Source of the DNA: an uncultured delta proteobacterium
GTDB lineage: Bacteria > Desulfobacterota > Zymogenia > Zymogenales > Zymogenaceae
Direction of reading: 5' to 3'
Length of the DNA: 64,000 nucleotides
NCBI GenBank assembly: GCA_963735595.1
Contig: CAVTLK010000002.1
Coordinates: 192,001-256,000 of the forward strand
A program made the position numbers and the translations under genes. How positions within the stretch are numbered: position 1 is the stretch's first letter; the number at the start of each line of letters is the position of its first letter. Below are positions 11,074-22,605 of this stretch, in pieces. A model generated the notes under the pieces. That model was not told the DNA's origin. It made no database searches and was given only the letters and a program-made list of their open reading frames with translations.

Positions 11074-14000
11074 ATGAAGCGGGTGTTAGTTGTCGGAAAG
11101 TCGAAGTCCGCTACCGCTCAACTGAAACGTACCCTGACCTCCCTTGATTACGACGTGGCCGGGGTAGCCATGACCGGGGCGGCGGCACTCCTTAAAGTGG
11201 AGAGCCTCGCGCCCGACATCGTCCTTATAGATGCGGCCATTCCCGGAGAAATAGACGGAATCGATACGGCACGGCTGGTACAGGAAGGCCTTAGTACACC
11301 CGCTTTTCTCCTCGTAGATCATGCGGATGAGCAATCGATATCTCGCCTAAACCAAGCAAAACTATACAAATACTTCGTCAAACCGGTTAAAAAGGAAGAG
11401 CTAAAAGCCGGCATTGAGGACGCGCTCAAGAAATGGGAGACGAAAAGGGATATACCCAGGCTGTACGAGGAACTGGTCGAAAATACCTATGATCTGATCC
11501 ACGTACAGGACGGAGACGGGAATATTACGTTTATCAACAACGCGGTTACCGAAACGCTCGGATACTCTTACAAGGAAATCGTCGGAAAAAACGTAAAGGA
11601 TATCGTAACCTCCGAAACCTTTCGGCTGTTGAGGGATATACTCAAGAGGCGGCTCGCGGGAGAAGGCGCGCATGCATTTGAGATGCAGGTCTATGATAAA
11701 CAGGGTAACCTCAAGACCCTTGAGACTCGTGAACGACTCATATGGGAGGGTAATCGGATTGTCGAGATCCAGGGAATCTCGCGCGACATCACCGAACGAA
11801 AGCGTATCGAGAATGATCTGCTGCTGCTCAATCGTCTCAAGGAACAGCTCCTCGTCCCGCACGGCCCTTTCGAAAAGCTGAAGCTCATCACCGATAAGAT
11901 CGTCGAGATATTCAACGCCGATTTCGCTCGAATATGGATGGTCGGCCCCGGCGATCTCTGTGATAGAGGGTGCTATCACGCGGGCGCCGGAGAAGGTCCC
12001 CATACATGCCGTGATCGAAGCCGCTGCCTTCACCTGGTGGCCAGTTCGGGTCGGTATACGCATATCGACGGCAAGCAACACCGGCGCGTGCCGTTGGGTG
12101 CCTATAAGATCGGCCGGGTCGCATCGGGCCGGGATCTTAAATTCCTGACCAACGACGTGCCCCATGATCCGCGGGTGCACGATCATGCCTGGGCCAAAAA
12201 AATAGGCCTGGTCTCCTTTGCCGGGTACCGGCTTCTCTCGAAAGAAGGGGAGCCCATCGGCGTTTTGGCGCTTTTCGGTACGCACCCCATCTCCCCGCAG
12301 GAAGATGCCCTCCTGGAGGATCTGGCAAACACGACCGCCCAGGTTATCCAATCGTCCCTCGCCGAGGAGATCCTCCGGGAATCGGAGGAACGATACCGAG
12401 CCCTCTTCGAGAACGCCGCATTCGGTATTTTTCGCACACTTCCCGAGGGTAGGTTTTTGAAGGTTAACACAGCCTTCGCCAGGATGCTGGGTTATGAATC
12501 GTCAGATGAAATGATTTCATCGGTAAAAGATGTTTCAAGTGATATCTATCTGAAGCCCGGGAGCCGGAACAAGGTATTGGGTGAGATTACCCAAAGACGC
12601 GGGTGGGGGATCTTCGAAGAGCGTTTCCGACGCAAGGACGGCTCCGATATCTTCGTTAAACTGCATATACGTCCGGTGTACGGACCCGATAACGCCTTCC
12701 AATATCTCGAGGGGTTCGTCGAGGACATTACCGAAAGGAAGCGGGCGGAGGAGGCTACGCGGAGAGACCAACAGCTCAAGGATAAGATTCTTCAAACCGC
12801 TGCTGTGGCGATTGCCTTTGCCGAGAACAGGAAGATAAACTGGGGTAACGCGGCAATGGAACAGACCTTTGGCTTCTCGGACGCGAGTGAGTATATTGGG
12901 AAGGATATCTCAATCCTCTACGCTTCGGATGAGGAGTATCAGCGCATCGGGAAGCTGGTCTACGGGGGAGGGGGATCCGGGGCGATTATCGAGGCGGTGG
13001 CGAGGCTCAGGCGGGCCGACTCGACTGAATTTCTCGGGCTTTTACGGGCCAGCATTGTTGACCCGGCCGAACCCCTCAAAGAGGCCGTTGTCAGTTACCT
13101 GGATATAACGGAAAAGACAAAGGCGGAGGAGGCTATACGCAGAGACCAGCAGCTTAAAGAGAAGATACTTCAAACCGCTACCGTAGGGATCGCCTTTGCC
13201 GAGAACAGGAAAATAACCTGGGCCAACGCGGCGATGGAACAGACCTTCGGCTTCTCTAACGCCGCTGAATATGTCGGAAAGGATACCTCCATCCTCTATG
13301 CGTCGGACGAGGAATATGAACGTATTGGAAAGCTGGCTTATGAAGGGCTAAAATCCGGGGAGATCATCGAGGCCGTCGCGGGATTCAGGCGGGCTGACTC
13401 GACTGAGTTTCTCGGGCTTGTACGGGTCAGTTTTGTCTATCCCACCGACCCCCTCAGGGAGATCGTCGTCAGCATCTCGGATATCACGGCAAAGACGGAG
13501 GCGGAAGAGGCCCTCAGGGAGAGCGAACGGCGCTACCGCTTACTTGCCGAAAATGCAGACGATATAATTTTCATGATGAATGCCGACCTCAAATTCACCT
13601 ACATCAGCCCCTCGGTTACCCGGATACGCGGATTTACGGTCGAGGAGGCGATGACCCAGACGATAGAGGAGGCGCTCACGCCGGATTCGCTGAAGGTGAT
13701 GATGAGTCATTTCGAACAGGGGATAGCGGCGGAGGCCGACGGAACCGATGACCGTGTCTATACACAGAGAATCGAGCTGGAAGAGACGTGTAAAGACGGC
13801 TCTACAATCTGGACCGAGACTATGGTTTCGGTCTTGAGAGACGAGAATGATACGTTTTCCGGCCTGCTCGGCATTACCCGCGAGATCACCGAGCGCAGGC
13901 AGGCCGAAGTTGCGCTGGCGGAATCCGAAGAAAAATATCGGATGGTCGTGGAAAACGCCTACGAGGGTATAGCGGTCATACAGGAGAATGTCCTTGTATT

Positions 14001-16137
14001 CGCCAACAGGAGGCTCCTGGATATATTCGGCTATACCGAGGAGGAATTCCTGGGTAAAAGCTACAATGATTTTCTGGTCGCCGACGATCAGGGAGAAGCC
14101 GATGCCGAATACCACCGTAAAGTCTCCGGAGGCGGTTATTCATACCTTTCGCTCCTGCGGATCATCACCAAGGAGGGAGAAGTCAGATGGACGGAAGTCA
14201 GCGGAATCCAGATTCCGTGGGAAGGCAAGCCCGCACTTATCATCTTTGTTCGTGACGTCACCGAGCGGAAAGCAATCGAGCAGGCGCTGATTCAGAGCGA
14301 GGCAAAATACCGCGATTTGATCGAAAACGCCATTGACCTTATTTTTACCGTCGATACGGAAGGGAATTTTCTCGAAGTCAACGAATCGCTGTTGCGGGAT
14401 ACCGGTTATTCAAAGCAGGATATTGTATCGACAGGCTTCAGGGATTTCGTCCATCCCGAGGATGCAGGTATCGCCCTTGACGCCTATGAGAAGGGCAGGC
14501 AGGGATTACCCCACGAATTCGAGATGAGGGGGAAGAAGAAAGCCGGAACGTACGGCTGGTATTCGTTCGTCATCAGGCCGATCTTCGACATAAACGGTGC
14601 CGTTGAGTACGTGCACTGTATAGCACGCAATATCACCGACCGTAAAACGGCCGAGGAGGCCCTGATCGATTCGGAAAAGAAATTCAGGGGCGTGTTCGAG
14701 ATGTCCCGGGACTTCATGTTTATCTCCTCACTTTCCGGGGAGATACTGGACTATAACCCTCAGGCGAAGGGCTTCTTTGGGTACACTGACGAGGAGATCA
14801 AGAAGACCAATATTATAGATATTTACGCGAATCCCAATGAAAGGGACGCAGTGCTTGCGAAGCTCATGGCAGAGGGTTTCGTGGAGAATTACGAGATCAG
14901 TCTGAAAAGGAAGGACGGCTCGATTATAGACGCGCTGGTGACTGCGACGGTGCAAAGAGACAGACAGGGAGACATTACCGGTTTCCAGGGATCGGCCAGG
15001 GATATCACTCAAATGAAGCGGATGGAACGTCAATTACTTCAAGCCGAGAAGCTTTCGGGCCTGGGCACGATGATTTCCGGGGTGGCCCACGAAATAAACA
15101 ACCCTCTGACGGCGATAATGGGCAACGCCGAGCTCATGCTGATGAACGATTCCGCTGACTCCAATGACAGGAGGTCATTGGAGGTAATCCTCCACGAGTC
15201 GGAGCGGGCGGCTAAGATTGTCGGCGGCCTGCTTACGTTTGCGCGGGAGCATACTCCGGAACGCAGGATGATCAGCGTCAACGATGTCATCATGGAGGCG
15301 CATCGGTTGAGAGAGTATAGCCTGCGCGTCAGCAACATAAAGACGGAGCTATTCCTCTCCGACGATCTGCCGCTTACTTTTGCCGACCCTTACCAGCTCC
15401 AGCAGGTATTTTCCAATATCATGAACAACGCGCGCGACGCACTCATGGACGTGGGGGGGGGGGGGACGCTCACCATCAGGACCTTACGTAACGGCGCGAA
15501 GCTCCTCATCGAGTTAGAGGACGACGGCACGGGGATCACCACCGAAAATATGCAAAAGATATTCGATCCCTTTTTCACGACGAAGGATATTGGGAAAGGA
15601 ACGGGATTGGGCCTTTCCATCGCCTACGGAATCGTTGAAGAGCATAACGGGAAAATCGAAATCGAAAGCCGGCAGGGCAGGGGCGCCAAATTTACGGTTG
15701 AATTACCCATTGTTGACAGGGCCGAACGCGCAATGACAAGGGTTCCCGCGGAGCCAAAGGTCATAACGGGCGGGAGATCGATACTTATTGTTGACGACGA
15801 AAGAGACGTGTTGGAATTTGTATCACGTGCCCTGGCCCAGTACGGTTATGTTATCCAGACGGCTTCAACCGCCGAAGAAGCCCTGGCATTGATGTATACG
15901 CAGGCGTTTGACGCCGTCGTTGCGGATATCAAGATGCCCGGTATGGGAGGAAAAGAGATGTATGCATACGTCAGGGAGCATATGCCGGGCGCGGCGGAAA
16001 AAATACTGTTCATTACGGGGGATATTCTGGGTGATGAGACTCAGGCCTTTATTGCGGACACCGGCAACATGTGTATCAAAAAACCGTTCAAGATAGGGGA
16101 ATTTGTCGCCAGGCTCAACGAACTCATCATTCCATGA
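11074..16137 (+). CDS. Giant hybrid sensor histidine kinase (REC-PAS-GAF-multi-PAS-HisKA-HATPase-REC), 1687 aa
   Basis: Repeated PAS ends (DITERK), H-box GVAHEINNPL, N/G boxes ([26 protein letters not shown]), C-terminal receiver (IVDDE, DIKMPG). Confidence 0.92.
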   Translation: MKRVLVVGKSKSATAQLKRTLTSLDYDVAGVAMTGAAALLKVESLAPDIVLIDAAIPGEIDGIDTARLVQEGLSTPAFLLVDHADEQSISRLNQAKLYKYFVKPVKKEELKAGIEDALKKWETKRDIPRLYEELVENTYDLIHVQDGDGNITFINNAVTETLGYSYKEIVGKNVKDIVTSETFRLLRDILKRRLAGEGAHAFEMQVYDKQGNLKTLETRERLIWEGNRIVEIQGISRDITERKRIENDLLLLNRLKEQLLVPHGPFEKLKLITDKIVEIFNADFARIWMVGPGDLCDRGCYHAGAGEGPHTCRDRSRCLHLVASSGRYTHIDGKQHRRVPLGAYKIGRVASGRDLKFLTNDVPHDPRVHDHAWAKKIGLVSFAGYRLLSKEGEPIGVLALFGTHPISPQEDALLEDLANTTAQVIQSSLAEEILRESEERYRALFENAAFGIFRTLPEGRFLKVNTAFARMLGYESSDEMISSVKDVSSDIYLKPGSRNKVLGEITQRRGWGIFEERFRRKDGSDIFVKLHIRPVYGPDNAFQYLEGFVEDITERKRAEEATRRDQQLKDKILQTAAVAIAFAENRKINWGNAAMEQTFGFSDASEYIGKDISILYASDEEYQRIGKLVYGGGGSGAIIEAVARLRRADSTEFLGLLRASIVDPAEPLKEAVVSYLDITEKTKAEEAIRRDQQLKEKILQTATVGIAFAENRKITWANAAMEQTFGFSNAAEYVGKDTSILYASDEEYERIGKLAYEGLKSGEIIEAVAGFRRADSTEFLGLVRVSFVYPTDPLREIVVSISDITAKTEAEEALRESERRYRLLAENADDIIFMMNADLKFTYISPSVTRIRGFTVEEAMTQTIEEALTPDSLKVMMSHFEQGIAAEADGTDDRVYTQRIELEETCKDGSTIWTETMVSVLRDENDTFSGLLGITREITERRQAEVALAESEEKYRMVVENAYEGIAVIQENVLVFANRRLLDIFGYTEEEFLGKSYNDFLVADDQGEADAEYHRKVSGGGYSYLSLLRIITKEGEVRWTEVSGIQIPWEGKPALIIFVRDVTERKAIEQALIQSEAKYRDLIENAIDLIFTVDTEGNFLEVNESLLRDTGYSKQDIVSTGFRDFVHPEDAGIALDAYEKGRQGLPHEFEMRGKKKAGTYGWYSFVIRPIFDINGAVEYVHCIARNITDRKTAEEALIDSEKKFRGVFEMSRDFMFISSLSGEILDYNPQAKGFFGYTDEEIKKTNIIDIYANPNERDAVLAKLMAEGFVENYEISLKRKDGSIIDALVTATVQRDRQGDITGFQGSARDITQMKRMERQLLQAEKLSGLGTMISGVAHEINNPLTAIMGNAELMLMNDSADSNDRRSLEVILHESERAAKIVGGLLTFAREHTPERRMISVNDVIMEAHRLREYSLRVSNIKTELFLSDDLPLTFADPYQLQQVFSNIMNNARDALMDVGGGGTLTIRTLRNGAKLLIELEDDGTGITTENMQKIFDPFFTTKDIGKGTGLGLSIAYGIVEEHNGKIEIESRQGRGAKFTVELPIVDRAERAMTRVPAEPKVITGGRSILIVDDERDVLEFVSRALAQYGYVIQTASTAEEALALMYTQAFDAVVADIKMPGMGGKEMYAYVREHMPGAAEKILFITGDILGDETQAFIADTGNMCIKKPFKIGEFVARLNELIIP
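12748..13503 (+). repeat. Intragenic tandem duplication of one PAS module (~378-bp period)
   Basis: EEATRRDQQLKDKILQTAAVAIAFAENRKINWGNAAMEQTFGFS... and EEAIRRDQQLKEKILQTATVGIAFAENRKITWANAAMEQTFGFS... start at ~12748 and ~13126. Confidence 0.9.
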
Positions 16138-18679: not shown

Positions 18680-19696
18680 TTACTGGCCCTCCATCGCCGT
18701 GCAGGCGTCTACTATTTTCAGGTCACACGCGGACTTGAAATCCTTTCTGGCCTCTTCTTTTTTGTTCAATTTAAGGTAGCTAACGCCCCGATTCCAGTAG
18801 GATTGGGCGAACTTTGAGTTAAGGCTTATGGCCTTGGTATAATCGGTAATGGCGCTGTCATAGTTGCCCATCTCGTAATATACGACGCCTCGGTTGTTAT
18901 AGACGATATAGTCATTAGGGGCAAGGGATATCGTCTTGTTATAGTCGGCTAACGCCTCCTTGTGTTTGCCCTGTTTCCAGTAGACGACTCCCCTGTTATT
19001 ATAGGCGGGCGCCGAGTTTGGCTCTATAGACAAGAGCTTGTTATAATCGGCGAGCGCTTCCTTATATTTCTGCATATTTCTGTAGGCCAGACCACGGAAG
19101 AGGTAGGCATCGGTCATCTTCGGCTCAAGCTCTATGGTTCGGTTGAAGAAGCTGACGGCGTTTTCATAGTCTCCCTTATCGACGAAATCGGTAGCGATCT
19201 TAAACCAATCGGCAGCGGTTCGGTTTTCTATACCTCCTTCGCCGCCGGAGGTGATCCCGCCGAGGGTCGAGGCGATGTGGTTGCAGGCCTTTTCAAGACC
19301 GAAATCGCAAGCCCTCTTGAAATCGGCCTCCGCCTCCTTTAGGCTGCCCATCTTTTCGTAAGTGAGCCCCCGCTGGTAGTACATCGAGCGGTTGGTTTTA
19401 TTCTTGTTGAGGAATTCGGTAAAATCCTTAACGGCGTTTTCATACTGCTCGGTGTGGAAATATGACATTCCCCGCATCCTGTAGGGCTCGGGCTCCGGAT
19501 TGGTTTTGATATACTCAGTCAGACACGAGATGCAGGCGTCATACTTCTTACTGTCGAAAAGGAGGGAGCATTCTTCAAACGATTTGGCCTTTGACGACGG
19601 GGCATAGCTGATATATAAAAAAAAGGAGAGCGAGGCGACGGCGATTGCGCTCAGGATAAGCAGTAACCTCTTCTTCCTTTTATCTTCTTTTGCCAT
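18680..19696 (-). CDS. Tetratricopeptide repeat protein with N-terminal membrane anchor
   Basis: Repeated AY(NN)RG...A..DY.KAI.L.P units; hydrophobic N-terminus after a KKRKKR-like basic patch. Confidence 0.85.
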   Translation of the reverse strand: MAKEDKRKKRLLLILSAIAVASLSFFLYISYAPSSKAKSFEECSLLFDSKKYDACISCLTEYIKTNPEPEPYRMRGMSYFHTEQYENAVKDFTEFLNKNKTNRSMYYQRGLTYEKMGSLKEAEADFKRACDFGLEKACNHIASTLGGITSGGEGGIENRTAADWFKIATDFVDKGDYENAVSFFNRTIELEPKMTDAYLFRGLAYRNMQKYKEALADYNKLLSIEPNSAPAYNNRGVVYWKQGKHKEALADYNKTISLAPNDYIVYNNRGVVYYEMGNYDSAITDYTKAISLNSKFAQSYWNRGVSYLKLNKKEEARKDFKSACDLKIVDACTAMEGQ

Positions 19697-20100: not shown

Positions 20101-20547
20101 ATGAAGATGAACCGAAAAAGGTCGGCATTAATAGGCAGGCGGTCCGGTTTTACGCTTATAGAATTGATGATCACCGTAATGGTTCTCACGATCCTCGCGT
20201 CATTCGCTATTCCTCTTTACGTCAACTACAAAGCCGGGGCTATGCAATCGGAGGCGAGGGTCCTTCTGGAAAGCCTCTGGACGAGTGAGATCTCCTACTA
20301 TTCAGACAAGAGCGTTTATACCGGGGATTATACCGTTTTAGGGACCGATCCTATACACGATTCCAAGTACTATAAGAATTGGGATCTTTTTTCCTATCCG
20401 GCGGCGACGCTGCAGGATTTCGTTGCGACCTGCTCGACAAACCTTGACCGCGATATCTTTATGGATACCTGGCTGGTATCTTCGGATACCACACTGACCT
20501 CCGGGGAAAAGATCATCAACACCTTCAATGACGTCCAGGATCGGTAG
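20101..20547 (+). CDS. Type IV pilin (prepilin N-terminal cleavage/methylation motif)
   Basis: Basic leader ...RRSG|FTLIELMITVMVLTILASFAIPLY (G-1, F+1, E+5). Confidence 0.9.
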   Translation: MKMNRKRSALIGRRSGFTLIELMITVMVLTILASFAIPLYVNYKAGAMQSEARVLLESLWTSEISYYSDKSVYTGDYTVLGTDPIHDSKYYKNWDLFSYPAATLQDFVATCSTNLDRDIFMDTWLVSSDTTLTSGEKIINTFNDVQDR

Positions 20548-20713: not shown

Positions 20714-21886
20714 CTACTCAATAACCCAGTCTCCCGTTACACCAAAGACGGCACACATCACCGGATCGGGGGCGATCTGATCGGGGGCACGGAACCGGCA
20801 TCCTCCCCCGCAGTCATCGATGTGTGGGCACGGGCCACAGGTAAGCTCATCGGCCCTGGTGATCGGCATCGACCGCCAGCAATCCAGTAACGAGTCCGCC
20901 GCGTCACCGACGGGTTGATCGGCAAAAAAACCGCATTTAGCGCCCTGGCCCGACGGTAGCACCGTCATGAGATGGTGGCCGCAGGCGAAACCGGGCGAGG
21001 AATGGCTGCCTCCTCCAAAGGCGTACTTCATAAGAGGGGCCGCCATTTCGGGCGTAACCGGCAGGCGGTCGTTTCGGACGAATCTCCCGGCTGCGCACGG
21101 CACGTCGATTCCCCAGGATACCGCGTCGATCTCCTGAATAAAGGCGGCCATGCGGTCGAACTCATCCATGTTTTCGCGATGAATCATCGTGGCGATAGAC
21201 ACGGCGATCCCCGCCGCCCGCACCGACTCAATCCCTCGCATTGCCCTGCCGAAAGATTTCGGCCCCCGGATAGCCTCGTGGCCGTGCTCCCACCCGTCAA
21301 GGGATATCTGCACTTCCTGGACTGCGAGCCGGCCCGCGGCCCGGTGGTTGATCAGCGTGCCATTGGTGATGAGGACACGGCGCATTGGCCGCCCGGCGGT
21401 TTGATCGAGGAGTTCAAATATTCGGGGATACAGCATTGGCTCCCCCCCCGATATAAGAAGCTTGAGACCTCCCATTTTCTCGAACTGGTCAACGACCGAA
21501 AGGGCCGCATCAAACGGTAAATCGACCGGGGAGAGAGCATCCTGATAACAGTGAAGGCAGGTCAGGTTGCATCGGGGGGTGACCTGAAGCTCAAGGAAGC
21601 GAAGAGACGGCAGGGGAGAGCGTGCCGTCCTGACCGGACGAGGGGATGGTTCAGGCAAGACGTCAAGAATTCCTTCGGAAAGGCAGTAGGCTATGAATTC
21701 GTCGTCATTTGCCACCAACTCCCCGCGGGCCGTTCCATCGCAGGCCGAGAGGAACGCGAACGCATCGTCGTTAATCTCGAACAGGTCGTCCGTATCGATA
21801 CGATAGACATACGGCTGTTCGAGCATCTTGAGAGACGCTTTCGGGCTCAGGGAGAGATATCCCGATTTCCAGTCCCTACTATTCAT
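20714..21886 (-). CDS. Radical SAM/SPASM protein with N-terminal RRE/PqqD-like domain; putative peptide maturase
   Basis: CNLTCLHC, SGGEP, SPASM cysteines (ACG...KC...CGPCPHIDDCGGGC...VMC). The first ~85 aa (YVYRIDTDDLFEINDDAFAFLSACDGT...LSEGIL) resemble PqqD/RRE. Confidence 0.85.
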   Translation of the reverse strand: MNSRDWKSGYLSLSPKASLKMLEQPYVYRIDTDDLFEINDDAFAFLSACDGTARGELVANDDEFIAYCLSEGILDVLPEPSPRPVRTARSPLPSLRFLELQVTPRCNLTCLHCYQDALSPVDLPFDAALSVVDQFEKMGGLKLLISGGEPMLYPRIFELLDQTAGRPMRRVLITNGTLINHRAAGRLAVQEVQISLDGWEHGHEAIRGPKSFGRAMRGIESVRAAGIAVSIATMIHRENMDEFDRMAAFIQEIDAVSWGIDVPCAAGRFVRNDRLPVTPEMAAPLMKYAFGGGSHSSPGFACGHHLMTVLPSGQGAKCGFFADQPVGDAADSLLDCWRSMPITRADELTCGPCPHIDDCGGGCRFRAPDQIAPDPVMCAVFGVTGDWVIE

Positions 21887-22247
21887 GAGCGATTGTCCGC
21901 AACATTTCGGAGGTTACCGTCCCGGTGCGGTAGAGGGCACACAGGATCACGAATCCTCCGCAGGCAACGGCATCAGCCGGAGGGGTCGGAAGTCTGAAGT
22001 CGCAACCGTCAAGCACGAACGGGCACGACCGGCAGATAAGCTCGAACAAAAGGCGATCACCTCGCTGGGCGTTATCGACCTCTTCCAGCTCCGGGAAGCT
22101 TGCGATCGTCAGAAGGCCGTTTTCCATCAGCGATACGGCCATAAGCGCCGCGCCGCAGGCCATTTCGTCCTTCTGTCCTTCCTTAAAGAAGGCGCAGTAC
22201 GGCCGACAGATGAAGCCGGAAAACTCCTTTTTTATGGGTTTTGTCAC
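21879..22247 (-). CDS. Cys-rich hypothetical protein, translationally coupled to the radical SAM gene
   Basis: 122 aa, GTG start; ICRPYCAFF, MACG, ICRSCPF, GCDF, VACGG; overlaps the start of the rSAM gene by 8 nt. Confidence 0.7.
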   Translation of the reverse strand: MTKPIKKEFSGFICRPYCAFFKEGQKDEMACGAALMAVSLMENGLLTIASFPELEEVDNAQRGDRLLFELICRSCPFVLDGCDFRLPTPPADAVACGGFVILCALYRTGTVTSEMLRTIAHE

Positions 22248-22358
22248 TACCGAATTTCAACCTTGGGAAATAGTGTCGGGTGAAACGGGCGCGAACCGCC
22301 GGCGAAGAGAAGGCCGGAGATTGTCCGTCGCTTCGAGTAAAAAGCTGAGCGGCCGTTG

Positions 22359-22391
22359 AAAAAAAAGGGCCGAACGCTTCTTTCGGCCCTT
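22359..22391 (-). terminator. Intrinsic terminator after the peptide gene
   Basis: Minus strand reads AAGGGCCGAA-agaagcg-TTCGGCCCTT followed by a U tract (A run 22359-22366 on +). Confidence 0.85.
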
Positions 22392-22413
22392 GAGAGCGAG
22401 GTGCAGGAAATCT

Positions 22414-22476
22414 TCAGCAGGAACGACCACACTTACACAAGCCCTTGGCAACCTTTTGGACCTTCTTGATCTTCAT
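22414..22476 (-). CDS. 20-aa Lys/Cys-rich peptide MKIKKVQKVAKGLCKCGRSC; putative RiPP precursor (below the ORF-track cutoff)
   Basis: ATG at 22476 preceded by AAAGGAGGAGCC (strong SD); TGA at 22416-22414; promoter upstream and terminator downstream; co-oriented with the rSAM/SPASM gene. Confidence 0.75.
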   Translation of the reverse strand: MKIKKVQKVAKGLCKCGRSC

Positions 22477-22577
22477 GGCTCCTCCTTTGCCCGTGCGGGC
22501 ATATCGTTTATGAGCGATACACTACAAAGTCTTACAAACGCTTCTTTAATAATCCACCTTAAGCATAATTTAAAAAT

Positions 22578-22605
22578 ATTTTATCACTCAAAGGCGTAAA
22601 GTCAA
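22578..22605 (-). promoter_or_regulatory. Sigma-70-like promoter for the peptide/rSAM unit
   Basis: Minus strand TTGACT-16 nt-TAAAAT with an extended -10 TG. Confidence 0.55.

What the first reader, a model, noticed from the sequence alone, without database searches (positions are those of the whole stretch)
20714..22605. Candidate new RiPP system: hidden 20-aa Cys peptide + Cys-rich accessory protein + RRE-radical SAM/SPASM enzyme
Seen in sequence: on the minus strand, promoter (22605-22578), SD AAAGGAGG, ORF MKIKKVQKVAKGLCKCGRSC (22476-22414, missed by the ORF track), terminator, a 122-aa Cys-rich ORF, then a radical SAM/SPASM gene. The first ~85 aa of that enzyme look like a PqqD/RRE leader-binding domain. 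Established knowledge: RRE-bearing rSAM/SPASM enzymes install thioether or C-C crosslinks on short neighbouring precursors (sactipeptides, ranthipeptides/SCIFF). Inference: the peptide has a basic leader (MKIKKVQKVAKG) and a tiny core (LCKCGRSC). It loosely recalls the N-terminal half of SCIFF peptides but is less than half their length and has only 3 Cys. I do not recognise this three-gene arrangement as a named family. No transporter or protease gene is adjacent.
Basis: partly seen in the sequence, partly recalled or inferred. Interest (0 to 1): 0.85.

Follow-up and report, generated by a model that had tools for sequence, protein, structure and literature searches.

The report
Tiny cysteine-peptide radical-SAM system of anaerobes
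A real but unannotated 20-amino-acid gene travels with one dedicated iron-sulfur enzyme and a small cysteine protein across several groups of anaerobic bacteria and archaea; the enzyme likely modifies the peptide's cysteines to make a small, probably metal-binding molecule that I could not find described.

Summary
Observation confirmed. The 20-codon ORF is a conserved gene (M-x-I-K/R-K-V-x-K/R-x5-C-K-C-x-x-S-C-stop). In 401 genomes of the window's phylum, 43 carry the peptide and 44 the enzyme; all 43 overlap, 41 side by side. It also occurs in Nitrospirota, Archaeoglobi, Thermoleophilia and Chloroflexota. The enzyme models as RRE + radical SAM + seven-Cys SPASM, aligning end to end with SuiB and SkfB, but reaches no NCBIfam family cut-off. 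The 122-aa protein is a doubled three-Cys module that is half-size in some lineages and fused to the enzyme in others. No transporter or protease is conserved. Extra His17 peptide copies sit beside CopA-type ATPases or YHS proteins (7 of 10 loci versus 0 of 140). Not SCIFF, not SbtA/SbtM, no selenocysteine. The chemistry is untested: thioether ring most likely (0.45), thiooxazole metal ligand next (0.25). No paper found in 10 searches. This scan reported the same system five times before on other DNA; the copper lead came from one of those notes and was retested here.

The parts
22578..22605 (-). sigma-70-type promoter-like site (TTGACT-16-TG-TAAAAT)
   Evidence: consensus match only
22481..22488 (-). 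Shine-Dalgarno sequence of the peptide gene
   Evidence: SD core at 136 of 147 homologous genes against 146 of 735 control ATGs
22414..22476 (-). 20-aa precursor peptide gene: basic N-terminal leader strand, core C14-K15-C16-x-x-S19-C20
22357..22391 (-). intrinsic-terminator-like hairpin with T run after the peptide gene; likely sets a high peptide-to-enzyme transcript ratio (inferred)
   Evidence: similar hairpin after 86 of 147 homologues against 9 of 144 controls
21879..22247 (-). 122-aa accessory protein: tandem duplication of a ~57-aa three-Cys module (C14/C18/C31 and C72/C75/C96) plus C82-D83; predicted metal or Fe-S binding
   Evidence: no Pfam/NCBIfam family (5, 6); no clear PDB fold
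21635..21871 (-). RRE-type domain of the enzyme (residues ~6-84; three-strand sheet followed by three helices in the model)
   Evidence: weak PqqD hits in 3 of 44 homologues
20714..21886 (-). 390-aa radical SAM/SPASM enzyme: CxxxCxxC at 106/110/113, SPASM Cys 302, 318, 350, 353, 359, 363, 378, all invariant in 92 of 92

Best explanation
The locus encodes a conserved 20-residue peptide, a dedicated radical SAM/SPASM enzyme with a predicted leader-binding (RRE) domain, and a cysteine-module partner protein; the enzyme likely grips the peptide's basic N-terminal strand and likely joins a core cysteine sulfur to a nearby carbon (thioether ring), giving a small peptide that probably stays in the cell and probably binds metal. 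Shown: the three genes, their conservation, the strict co-occurrence of peptide and enzyme, the invariant C-K-C-x-x-S-C end, the enzyme's cluster-binding cysteines, the duplication and fusion of the partner. Predicted from the model: RRE fold. Inferred: residues 2-8 pair as a beta strand with the RRE; auxiliary cluster I has three fixed Cys ligands (302, 318, 363) and an open site for a substrate thiolate; the deoxyadenosyl radical takes a hydrogen from Lys15, Ser19 or the terminal Cys20, and C-S closure follows (-2 Da per ring), leaving at least one free thiol or His17 as metal ligand. Inferred: the partner holds Fe-S or Zn through its three-Cys modules and serves the enzyme as electron carrier or substrate-thiol chaperone. 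That peptide and enzyme are a substrate-enzyme pair I put at about 0.85; the confidence below is for the whole thioether mechanism.
Against: No modification has been shown. The His-Gln pair that follows the auxiliary-cluster Cys in CteB (PMC10288494, part 3) is absent: Gly/Thr/Ala/Ser then Phe/Leu. The core has no conserved Asp, Glu, Asn, Thr or Gly of the kind that usually accepts a thioether. C264 or H295/H305 could fill the fourth site; I had no coordinates to check. The RRE was not folded or searched alone, and its sequence hits are weak (best Pfam PqqD E 0.018; none in PDB). The copper link concerns extra His17 copies, mostly from one lineage and from short contigs; the window's own peptide has Gly17 and no copper gene nearby (its P1B ATPase is on another contig). 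The partner also occurs in 9 of 51 genomes with no intact enzyme, so it can exist without this pathway. The profiles and patterns were built partly from these same genomes, and the 43 genomes are kin (25 genera).
Confidence: 0.45

Rival explanations
1. The enzyme oxidises Cys at C-beta, as anSME and SbtM do, and converts Lys-Cys (K15-C16) or another Xaa-Cys into a 5-thiooxazole (-4 Da, thiol kept). The product would be an oxygen-independent counterpart of the copper-binding captophorins.
For: SbtM shows that a SPASM radical SAM enzyme can make thiooxazoles (PMC9204691, passages). Captophorin precursors are grouped by Lys-Cys and Cys-Lys motifs and bind copper (PMC12668002, passages); C-K-C here is invariant. 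His17 copies lie in CopA/YHS neighbourhoods. This chemistry needs no acceptor side chain and keeps the thiols that copper needs. anSME is the best PDB hit of the SPASM profile, narrowly (E 6e-4 against 5e-3 for CteB). The CteB His-Gln pair is missing.
Against: The enzyme is no closer to SbtM than to others (60.6 bits against cut-off 350). Real SbtA/SbtM loci fetched here are unrelated in peptide (hhalign probability 1.3%; 3 of 60 column shuffles scored as high) and their enzymes' N-termini do not match the RRE profile. Only one radical SAM thiooxazole enzyme is known to me. Most copies have no copper gene nearby (0 of 140).
Confidence: 0.25
2. The enzyme acts on the free C-terminal Cys20 by oxidative decarboxylation (MftC-like, -46 Da), and the C-terminal few residues are the source of a small cofactor, with optional tailoring by the neighbouring cupin, second radical SAM, methyltransferase or ATP-grasp enzymes.
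For: Cys20 is always the last residue: the fixed-length pattern found a peptide in 43 of 44 enzyme genomes. Several Arg residues are invariant or nearly so (R96, R169, R364, R366) and could bind a carboxylate (inferred). MftC decarboxylates its peptide's C-terminus (PMC10114670, passages). Mostly single-copy, lineage-tracking distribution without export genes. Cupin in 25 of 44 enzyme genomes against 11 of 357 others.
Against: No peptidase is conserved; none of the optional enzymes is in the window's genome; mycofactocin model score 83.6 against cut-off 265.
Confidence: 0.12
3. The peptide is not covalently modified: it is a miniature thiolate metal-binding peptide or sulfur/metal donor that docks on the RRE, and the enzyme's true substrate is the cysteine-module protein or a small molecule.
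For: Solo copies in metal-export neighbourhoods could act unmodified. SPASM enzymes can modify Cys-rich proteins (CrpC, PMC13692751, abstract and section 8). The partner is nearly always in the genome (42 of 44; 5 of 5).
Against: The partner is fused to the enzyme in 11 of 75 loci, folds confidently by itself (pLDDT 88) and occurs without the enzyme, unlike a substrate. The peptide tracks the enzyme exactly, and genomes with solo copies mostly keep the enzyme.
Confidence: 0.13
4. The ORF is a chance frame, an attenuator leader, or the truncated start of a selenoprotein read through its TGA.
For: The window's ORF ends in TGA, the genome has tRNA-Sec, and a terminator follows.
Against: 99 of 147 homologues end in TAA or TAG; the frame beyond TGA is not conserved in four close relatives; no TGA at position 16 in the metagenome scan and none at 14 or 20 in 113 clean ORFs; the peptide also lies downstream of the enzyme or far from it, which an attenuator could not.
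Confidence: 0.02

Closest known systems
SCIFF / ranthipeptide systems (CteA-CteB, Tte1186, PapA-PapB; TIGR03974, NF047865)
   Same: RRE-radical SAM-SPASM architecture with seven SPASM Cys; Cys-rich precursor; anaerobic hosts. A short basic leader and C-x-x-S-C spacing in SCIFF peptides are recalled, not tested.
   Different: 20 aa with three Cys; enzyme far below the family cut-off (not in the best 25, so under 52 bits against 425); no His-Gln after the auxiliary Cys (120); partner protein unknown in SCIFF clusters (recalled).
Sactipeptide maturases SkfB, AlbA, StsB (NF045574)
   Different: StsB score 88 against cut-off 625; no C-terminal acceptor stretch after the cysteines, since Cys20 ends the chain; no transporter or protease.
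SuiB/StrB (streptide, Lys-Trp crosslink)
   Same: Best end-to-end structural match (TM 0.68; 350 residues); an invariant Lys in the core.
   Different: No aromatic residue is conserved in the core; about 14-17% identity.
SbtA/SbtM thio(seleno)oxazole system (TIGR04081/TIGR04082)
   Same: SPASM radical SAM enzyme acting on Cys of a short peptide in the same phylum.
   Different: Different enzyme family and N-terminal domain, different leader, Sec repeats absent here.
Captophorins (fontiphorin, oxazolin, bufferins; MNIO-made 5-thiooxazole copper peptides)
   Same: Lys-Cys / Cys-Lys motifs; link to copper handling (PMC12668002, passages).
   Different: No MNIO/DUF692 enzyme among the neighbours examined; radical SAM enzyme instead; no hydrophobic signal stretch; hosts are anaerobic lineages.
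Mycofactocin (MftA-MftB-MftC) and PQQ (PqqA-PqqD-PqqE)
   Same: Short conserved peptide, RRE, SPASM enzyme, no export genes, housekeeping-like spread.
   Different: No Val-Tyr or Glu-x3-Tyr motif; no conserved peptidase; scores far below cut-offs.

Membership tests
RRE-dependent radical SAM/SPASM RiPP systems (broad class) | radical SAM CxxxCxxC motif and SPASM cysteines | tested here: met
   ten Cys invariant in 92 of 92; SPASM profile hits anSME and CteB
RRE-dependent radical SAM/SPASM RiPP systems (broad class) | RRE (PqqD-like) domain | tested here: met
   three strands + three helices at pLDDT >89 (88); aligned with the N-termini of SuiB and SkfB; weak PqqD hits 3 of 44; domain not searched alone
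RRE-dependent radical SAM/SPASM RiPP systems (broad class) | conserved short precursor gene tied to the enzyme | tested here: met
   43 of 44 enzyme genomes, 0 of 357 others
RRE-dependent radical SAM/SPASM RiPP systems (broad class) | enzyme modifies the peptide | not testable with these tools
   needs in vitro or co-expression mass spectrometry
SCIFF / ranthipeptides | enzyme over TIGR03974 or PapB cut-off | tested here: not met
   not among the best 25 (under 52 bits; cut-offs 425 and 340 as listed); no member of 92 better than E 1e-31 for any model
SCIFF / ranthipeptides | six-Cys, ~45-residue precursor or CxxxD/E motifs | tested here: not met
   20 aa, three Cys, no conserved acidic residue (43, 80); 0 of 20 peptides hit a SCIFF model
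SCIFF / ranthipeptides | His-Gln after the auxiliary-cluster Cys (CteB positions 5-6) | tested here: not met
   G/T/A/S then F/L (120) against CteB His363-Gln364 (117)
Sactipeptides | enzyme over a known sactisynthase cut-off (StsB, AlbA) | tested here: not met
   StsB 88.4 against 625 (5); AlbA best E 5e-23 (54); sactisynthases are divergent, so this does not exclude the chemistry
Sactipeptides | S-C-alpha linkage | not testable with these tools
   needs MS/NMR
SbtA/SbtM | enzyme over TIGR04082 cut-off | tested here: not met
   60.6 against 350 (5)
SbtA/SbtM | TIGR04081 leader and Gly/Ser-Sec repeats | tested here: not met
   no match in the window's genome; 1 of 20 peptides at E 0.099 (136), not upheld against 14 fetched SbtA loci
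Captophorins | MNIO (DUF692) enzyme in the cluster | tested here: not met
   none among the window's genes or recognised in the recurring neighbour clusters; not searched genome-wide
Captophorins | Lys-Cys or Cys-Lys motif in the precursor | tested here: met
   C-K-C invariant
Captophorins | copper-related context or binding | tested here: inconclusive
   7 of 10 His17 solo loci, 0 of 140 others; binding untested
Mycofactocin / PQQ | enzyme over cut-off and class-specific peptide motif | tested here: not met
   83.6 against 265 and 59.3 against 381 (5); motifs absent

The most novel reading that the evidence does not exclude
An oxygen-independent route to a copper-binding thiooxazole peptide: anaerobic bacteria and archaea use this radical SAM enzyme, served by a previously unknown three-Cys metal module, to make a cytoplasmic counterpart of the captophorins, with extra His17 precursor copies recruited into copper-export operons.
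Probability: 0.2. Interest if true: 0.82.

Novelty: new variant of a known kind. Interest (0 to 1): 0.62.

Why it matters
It is one of the shortest radical SAM peptide substrates I know of, is missed by gene callers (two peptides looked up are absent from 15 billion predicted proteins), and is kept almost unchanged from sulfur-cycling bacteria to Archaeoglobi. That points to a cellular role rather than a bacteriocin. The substrate can be bought as a synthetic 20-mer, so the chemistry is cheap to test. The partner is an unassigned cysteine module with no clear structural match; if it feeds electrons to the enzyme it bears on the open question of how these enzymes are reduced in vivo (raised in PMC9204691). 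If the product binds copper, it would show how anaerobes handle copper without oxygen-dependent enzymes.

Full report
Observation. On the minus strand lie a promoter-like site (22605-22578), a strong SD (22488-22481), a 20-codon ORF (22476-22414), a terminator-like hairpin (22391-22365), a 122-aa ORF (22247-21879) and, overlapping it by 8 nt, a 390-aa radical SAM gene (21886-20714). The flanks are a pilin-like gene and UDP-glucose dehydrogenase. Neither the peptide nor the 122-aa protein has a Pfam or NCBIfam family; the enzyme's best NCBIfam score is 106 bits against a cut-off of 500, and none of 92 homologues does better than E 1e-31.

The peptide is a gene. I first selected loci by the 122-aa protein, without reference to the peptide. 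All 6 matches among 61 genomes had a 20-aa peptide upstream. Named hosts are Thermodesulfobacteriota, Nitrospirota, Archaeoglobi, Thermoleophilia and other Actinomycetota, Chloroflexia and Nitrospinota. A metagenome scan gave 120 more, 113 clean. Across 147 distinct genes the consensus is M-x-I-K/R-K-V/I-x-K/R-x5-C-K-C-x-x-S-C-stop, with synonymous codon variation, all three stops, SD at 136 of 147 (control 146 of 735) and a terminator at 86 of 147 (control 9 of 144). Lys15 was unconstrained in two patterns and was Lys in 47 of 47 and 113 of 113 matches. Selenocysteine is excluded as a family trait, although the host has tRNA-Sec.

Peptide and enzyme go together. In the same 401 genomes of the window's phylum, 43 have the peptide (reversed pattern 0) and 44 the enzyme. 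All 43 overlap; 41 are within 1.5 kb on one strand, 30 upstream and 11 downstream; the exception has its enzyme at a contig edge. The profiles were built partly from these genomes and the positives are kin (25 genera), so I give no statistic; the 357 double negatives are the independent part. Of 75 real long loci chosen by peptide alone, 60 contain the enzyme; of 10 solo-peptide genomes tested, 8 have it elsewhere, one as a fragment, and two small assemblies (1.4 and 2.0 Mb) do not. A quick tree of 86 enzymes groups them by host lineage, with peptide subtypes following.

The enzyme. The model (pLDDT 94) shows strands 17-21, 25-29, 34-37 and helices 40-47, 55-58, 62-70 before the barrel. SuiB aligns over residues 11-385 and SkfB over 15-367, whereas anSME aligns only from 94; that the N-termini of SuiB and SkfB are RREs is established knowledge. 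Sequence evidence for the RRE is weak (PqqD in 3 of 44, best E 0.018; NF038044 in 10 of 44; nothing in PDB). The three radical SAM and seven SPASM cysteines are invariant in 92 of 92; C264 (83), H295 (87) and H305 (92) are candidates for a further ligand or base. The two residues after C318 are Gly/Thr/Ala/Ser and Phe/Leu, not the His-Gln of CteB (PMC10288494).

The partner. At least 213 clusters at 50% identity match it. Seven Cys and D83 are nearly invariant. Its halves align with each other (probability 94%), and a ~57-aa single-module form in archaea and other lineages aligns with both (98%). Among the 75 loci it is separate in 29, fused to the enzyme's N-terminus in 11, half-size in 7 and missing in 13; in 5 of 5 such genomes tested it lies elsewhere. 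It is in 42 of 44 enzyme genomes, but also in 9 without an intact enzyme. It folds confidently with no clear structural match. Metal or Fe-S binding and an electron-transfer or chaperone role are inference.

Other neighbours. No transporter or protease recurs. Optional genes are a His-rich cupin (25 of 44 enzyme genomes, 11 of 357 others), a second SPASM enzyme without RRE (9 loci, two phyla), a methyltransferase-cupin pair behind a second peptide copy (2 loci) and an ATP-grasp protein in one lineage. None was found in the window's genome.

Copper link. Of 151 pattern-selected loci over 1 kb, 10 have a His17 peptide without enzyme or partner. Four lie beside a CopA-type ATPase (one over the TIGR01511 cut-off, three fragments at contig ends) and four beside a Pfam YHS protein, 7 of 10 in all; 0 of 140 non-His17 loci do. 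The YHS profile and ATPase query came from those loci, the contigs are short, and the cases are mostly one lineage. In 3 of 5 such genomes an ordinary Lys17 copy also exists. The window's own peptide has Gly17 and no copper gene nearby.

Mechanism. Substrate-enzyme pair: about 0.85. Chemistry: a thioether ring is the commonest outcome for Cys-rich precursors (PMC10114670), fits three fixed ligands at auxiliary cluster I, and PapB can close Cys onto a C-terminal residue at the C16-C20 spacing (PMC12373016); I give 0.45. Against it are the missing His-Gln and the lack of usual acceptor residues. Thiooxazole formation at Lys-Cys, as by SbtM (PMC9204691) and as in copper-binding captophorins (PMC12668002), explains the invariant Lys and the copper context; 0.25. 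C-terminal decarboxylation 0.12; unmodified peptide 0.13.

Comparison and novelty. It works like an RRE-dependent SPASM RiPP system but fails membership of SCIFF, known sactipeptide, SbtA/SbtM, mycofactocin and PQQ families. Ten literature searches found no description. What I saw of papers: PMC9204691, PMC10114670, PMC12373016 and PMC12668002 passages; PMC13692751 abstract and section 8; PMC10288494 parts 2-3 of 8 and a word search of its spreadsheet, not its SI PDF. Haft and Basu 2011 and Lewis 2021 were not held. The enzyme family may be an unnamed node in published networks. Five earlier notes of this scan describe the same system from other genomes; they are repeats, not independent support. 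Verdict: real, a new variant of a known kind, interest 0.62.

Noticed in passing
window 11074-16137 (+): 1687-aa hybrid sensor kinase with N- and C-terminal receiver domains, many PAS-like repeats and a Cys/His-rich GAF-like insert (read from the sequence; not scanned).
   Followed up: no
window 20101-20547 (+) and 18680-19696 (-): Solitary type IV pilin-like gene (N-methylation motif) and a TPR protein, divergently arranged around a strong promoter-like site at 19823-19795.
   Followed up: no
L022, L023, L026, L029, L173, L176 (families f21 and f62): The cysteine-module protein is kept with its cysteines in 8 genomes that lack both enzyme and peptide; in four loci read it lies between a methyltransferase-like and a pseudouridine-synthase-like gene (names from reading the sequence). 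It may have a role of its own.
   Followed up: partly
L174:2489-2938 (G188): Partner gene followed by only the first residues of the enzyme; no peptide or enzyme found in this genome: apparently a decayed locus.
   Followed up: partly
L063:1198-2622 and P0155: The partner domain is fused to the C-terminus of a receiver-PAS-kinase-like protein, divergent from the enzyme gene; possibly a chimera.
   Followed up: no
L186:2440-3698 and L067:490-1735: Second peptide copy (GTG start in L186) followed by a methyltransferase and the cupin: a satellite tailoring cassette.
   Followed up: partly
L002, L003: In both same-genus genomes the enzyme gene is frameshifted (2 and 3 pieces); assembly error or decay not resolved.
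   Followed up: no
L062, L064, L074, L101, L232, L263: His17 peptide copies are followed or flanked by secreted Met/Gly-rich proteins (one with a weak Metal_resist hit) and, in two, a YHS-thioredoxin reductase fusion.
   Followed up: partly
L327-L340: SbtA-family precursors in 22 of 301 genomes; several show repeated Ser-Ser-Sec or Gly-Ser-Gly-Sec motifs, others Cys only, wider than the Geobacter range described in PMC9204691.
   Followed up: no
L199-L201: In several Nitrospirota the partner gene sits apart from the enzyme, directly behind a CutA-like gene (name from reading the sequence).
   Followed up: no
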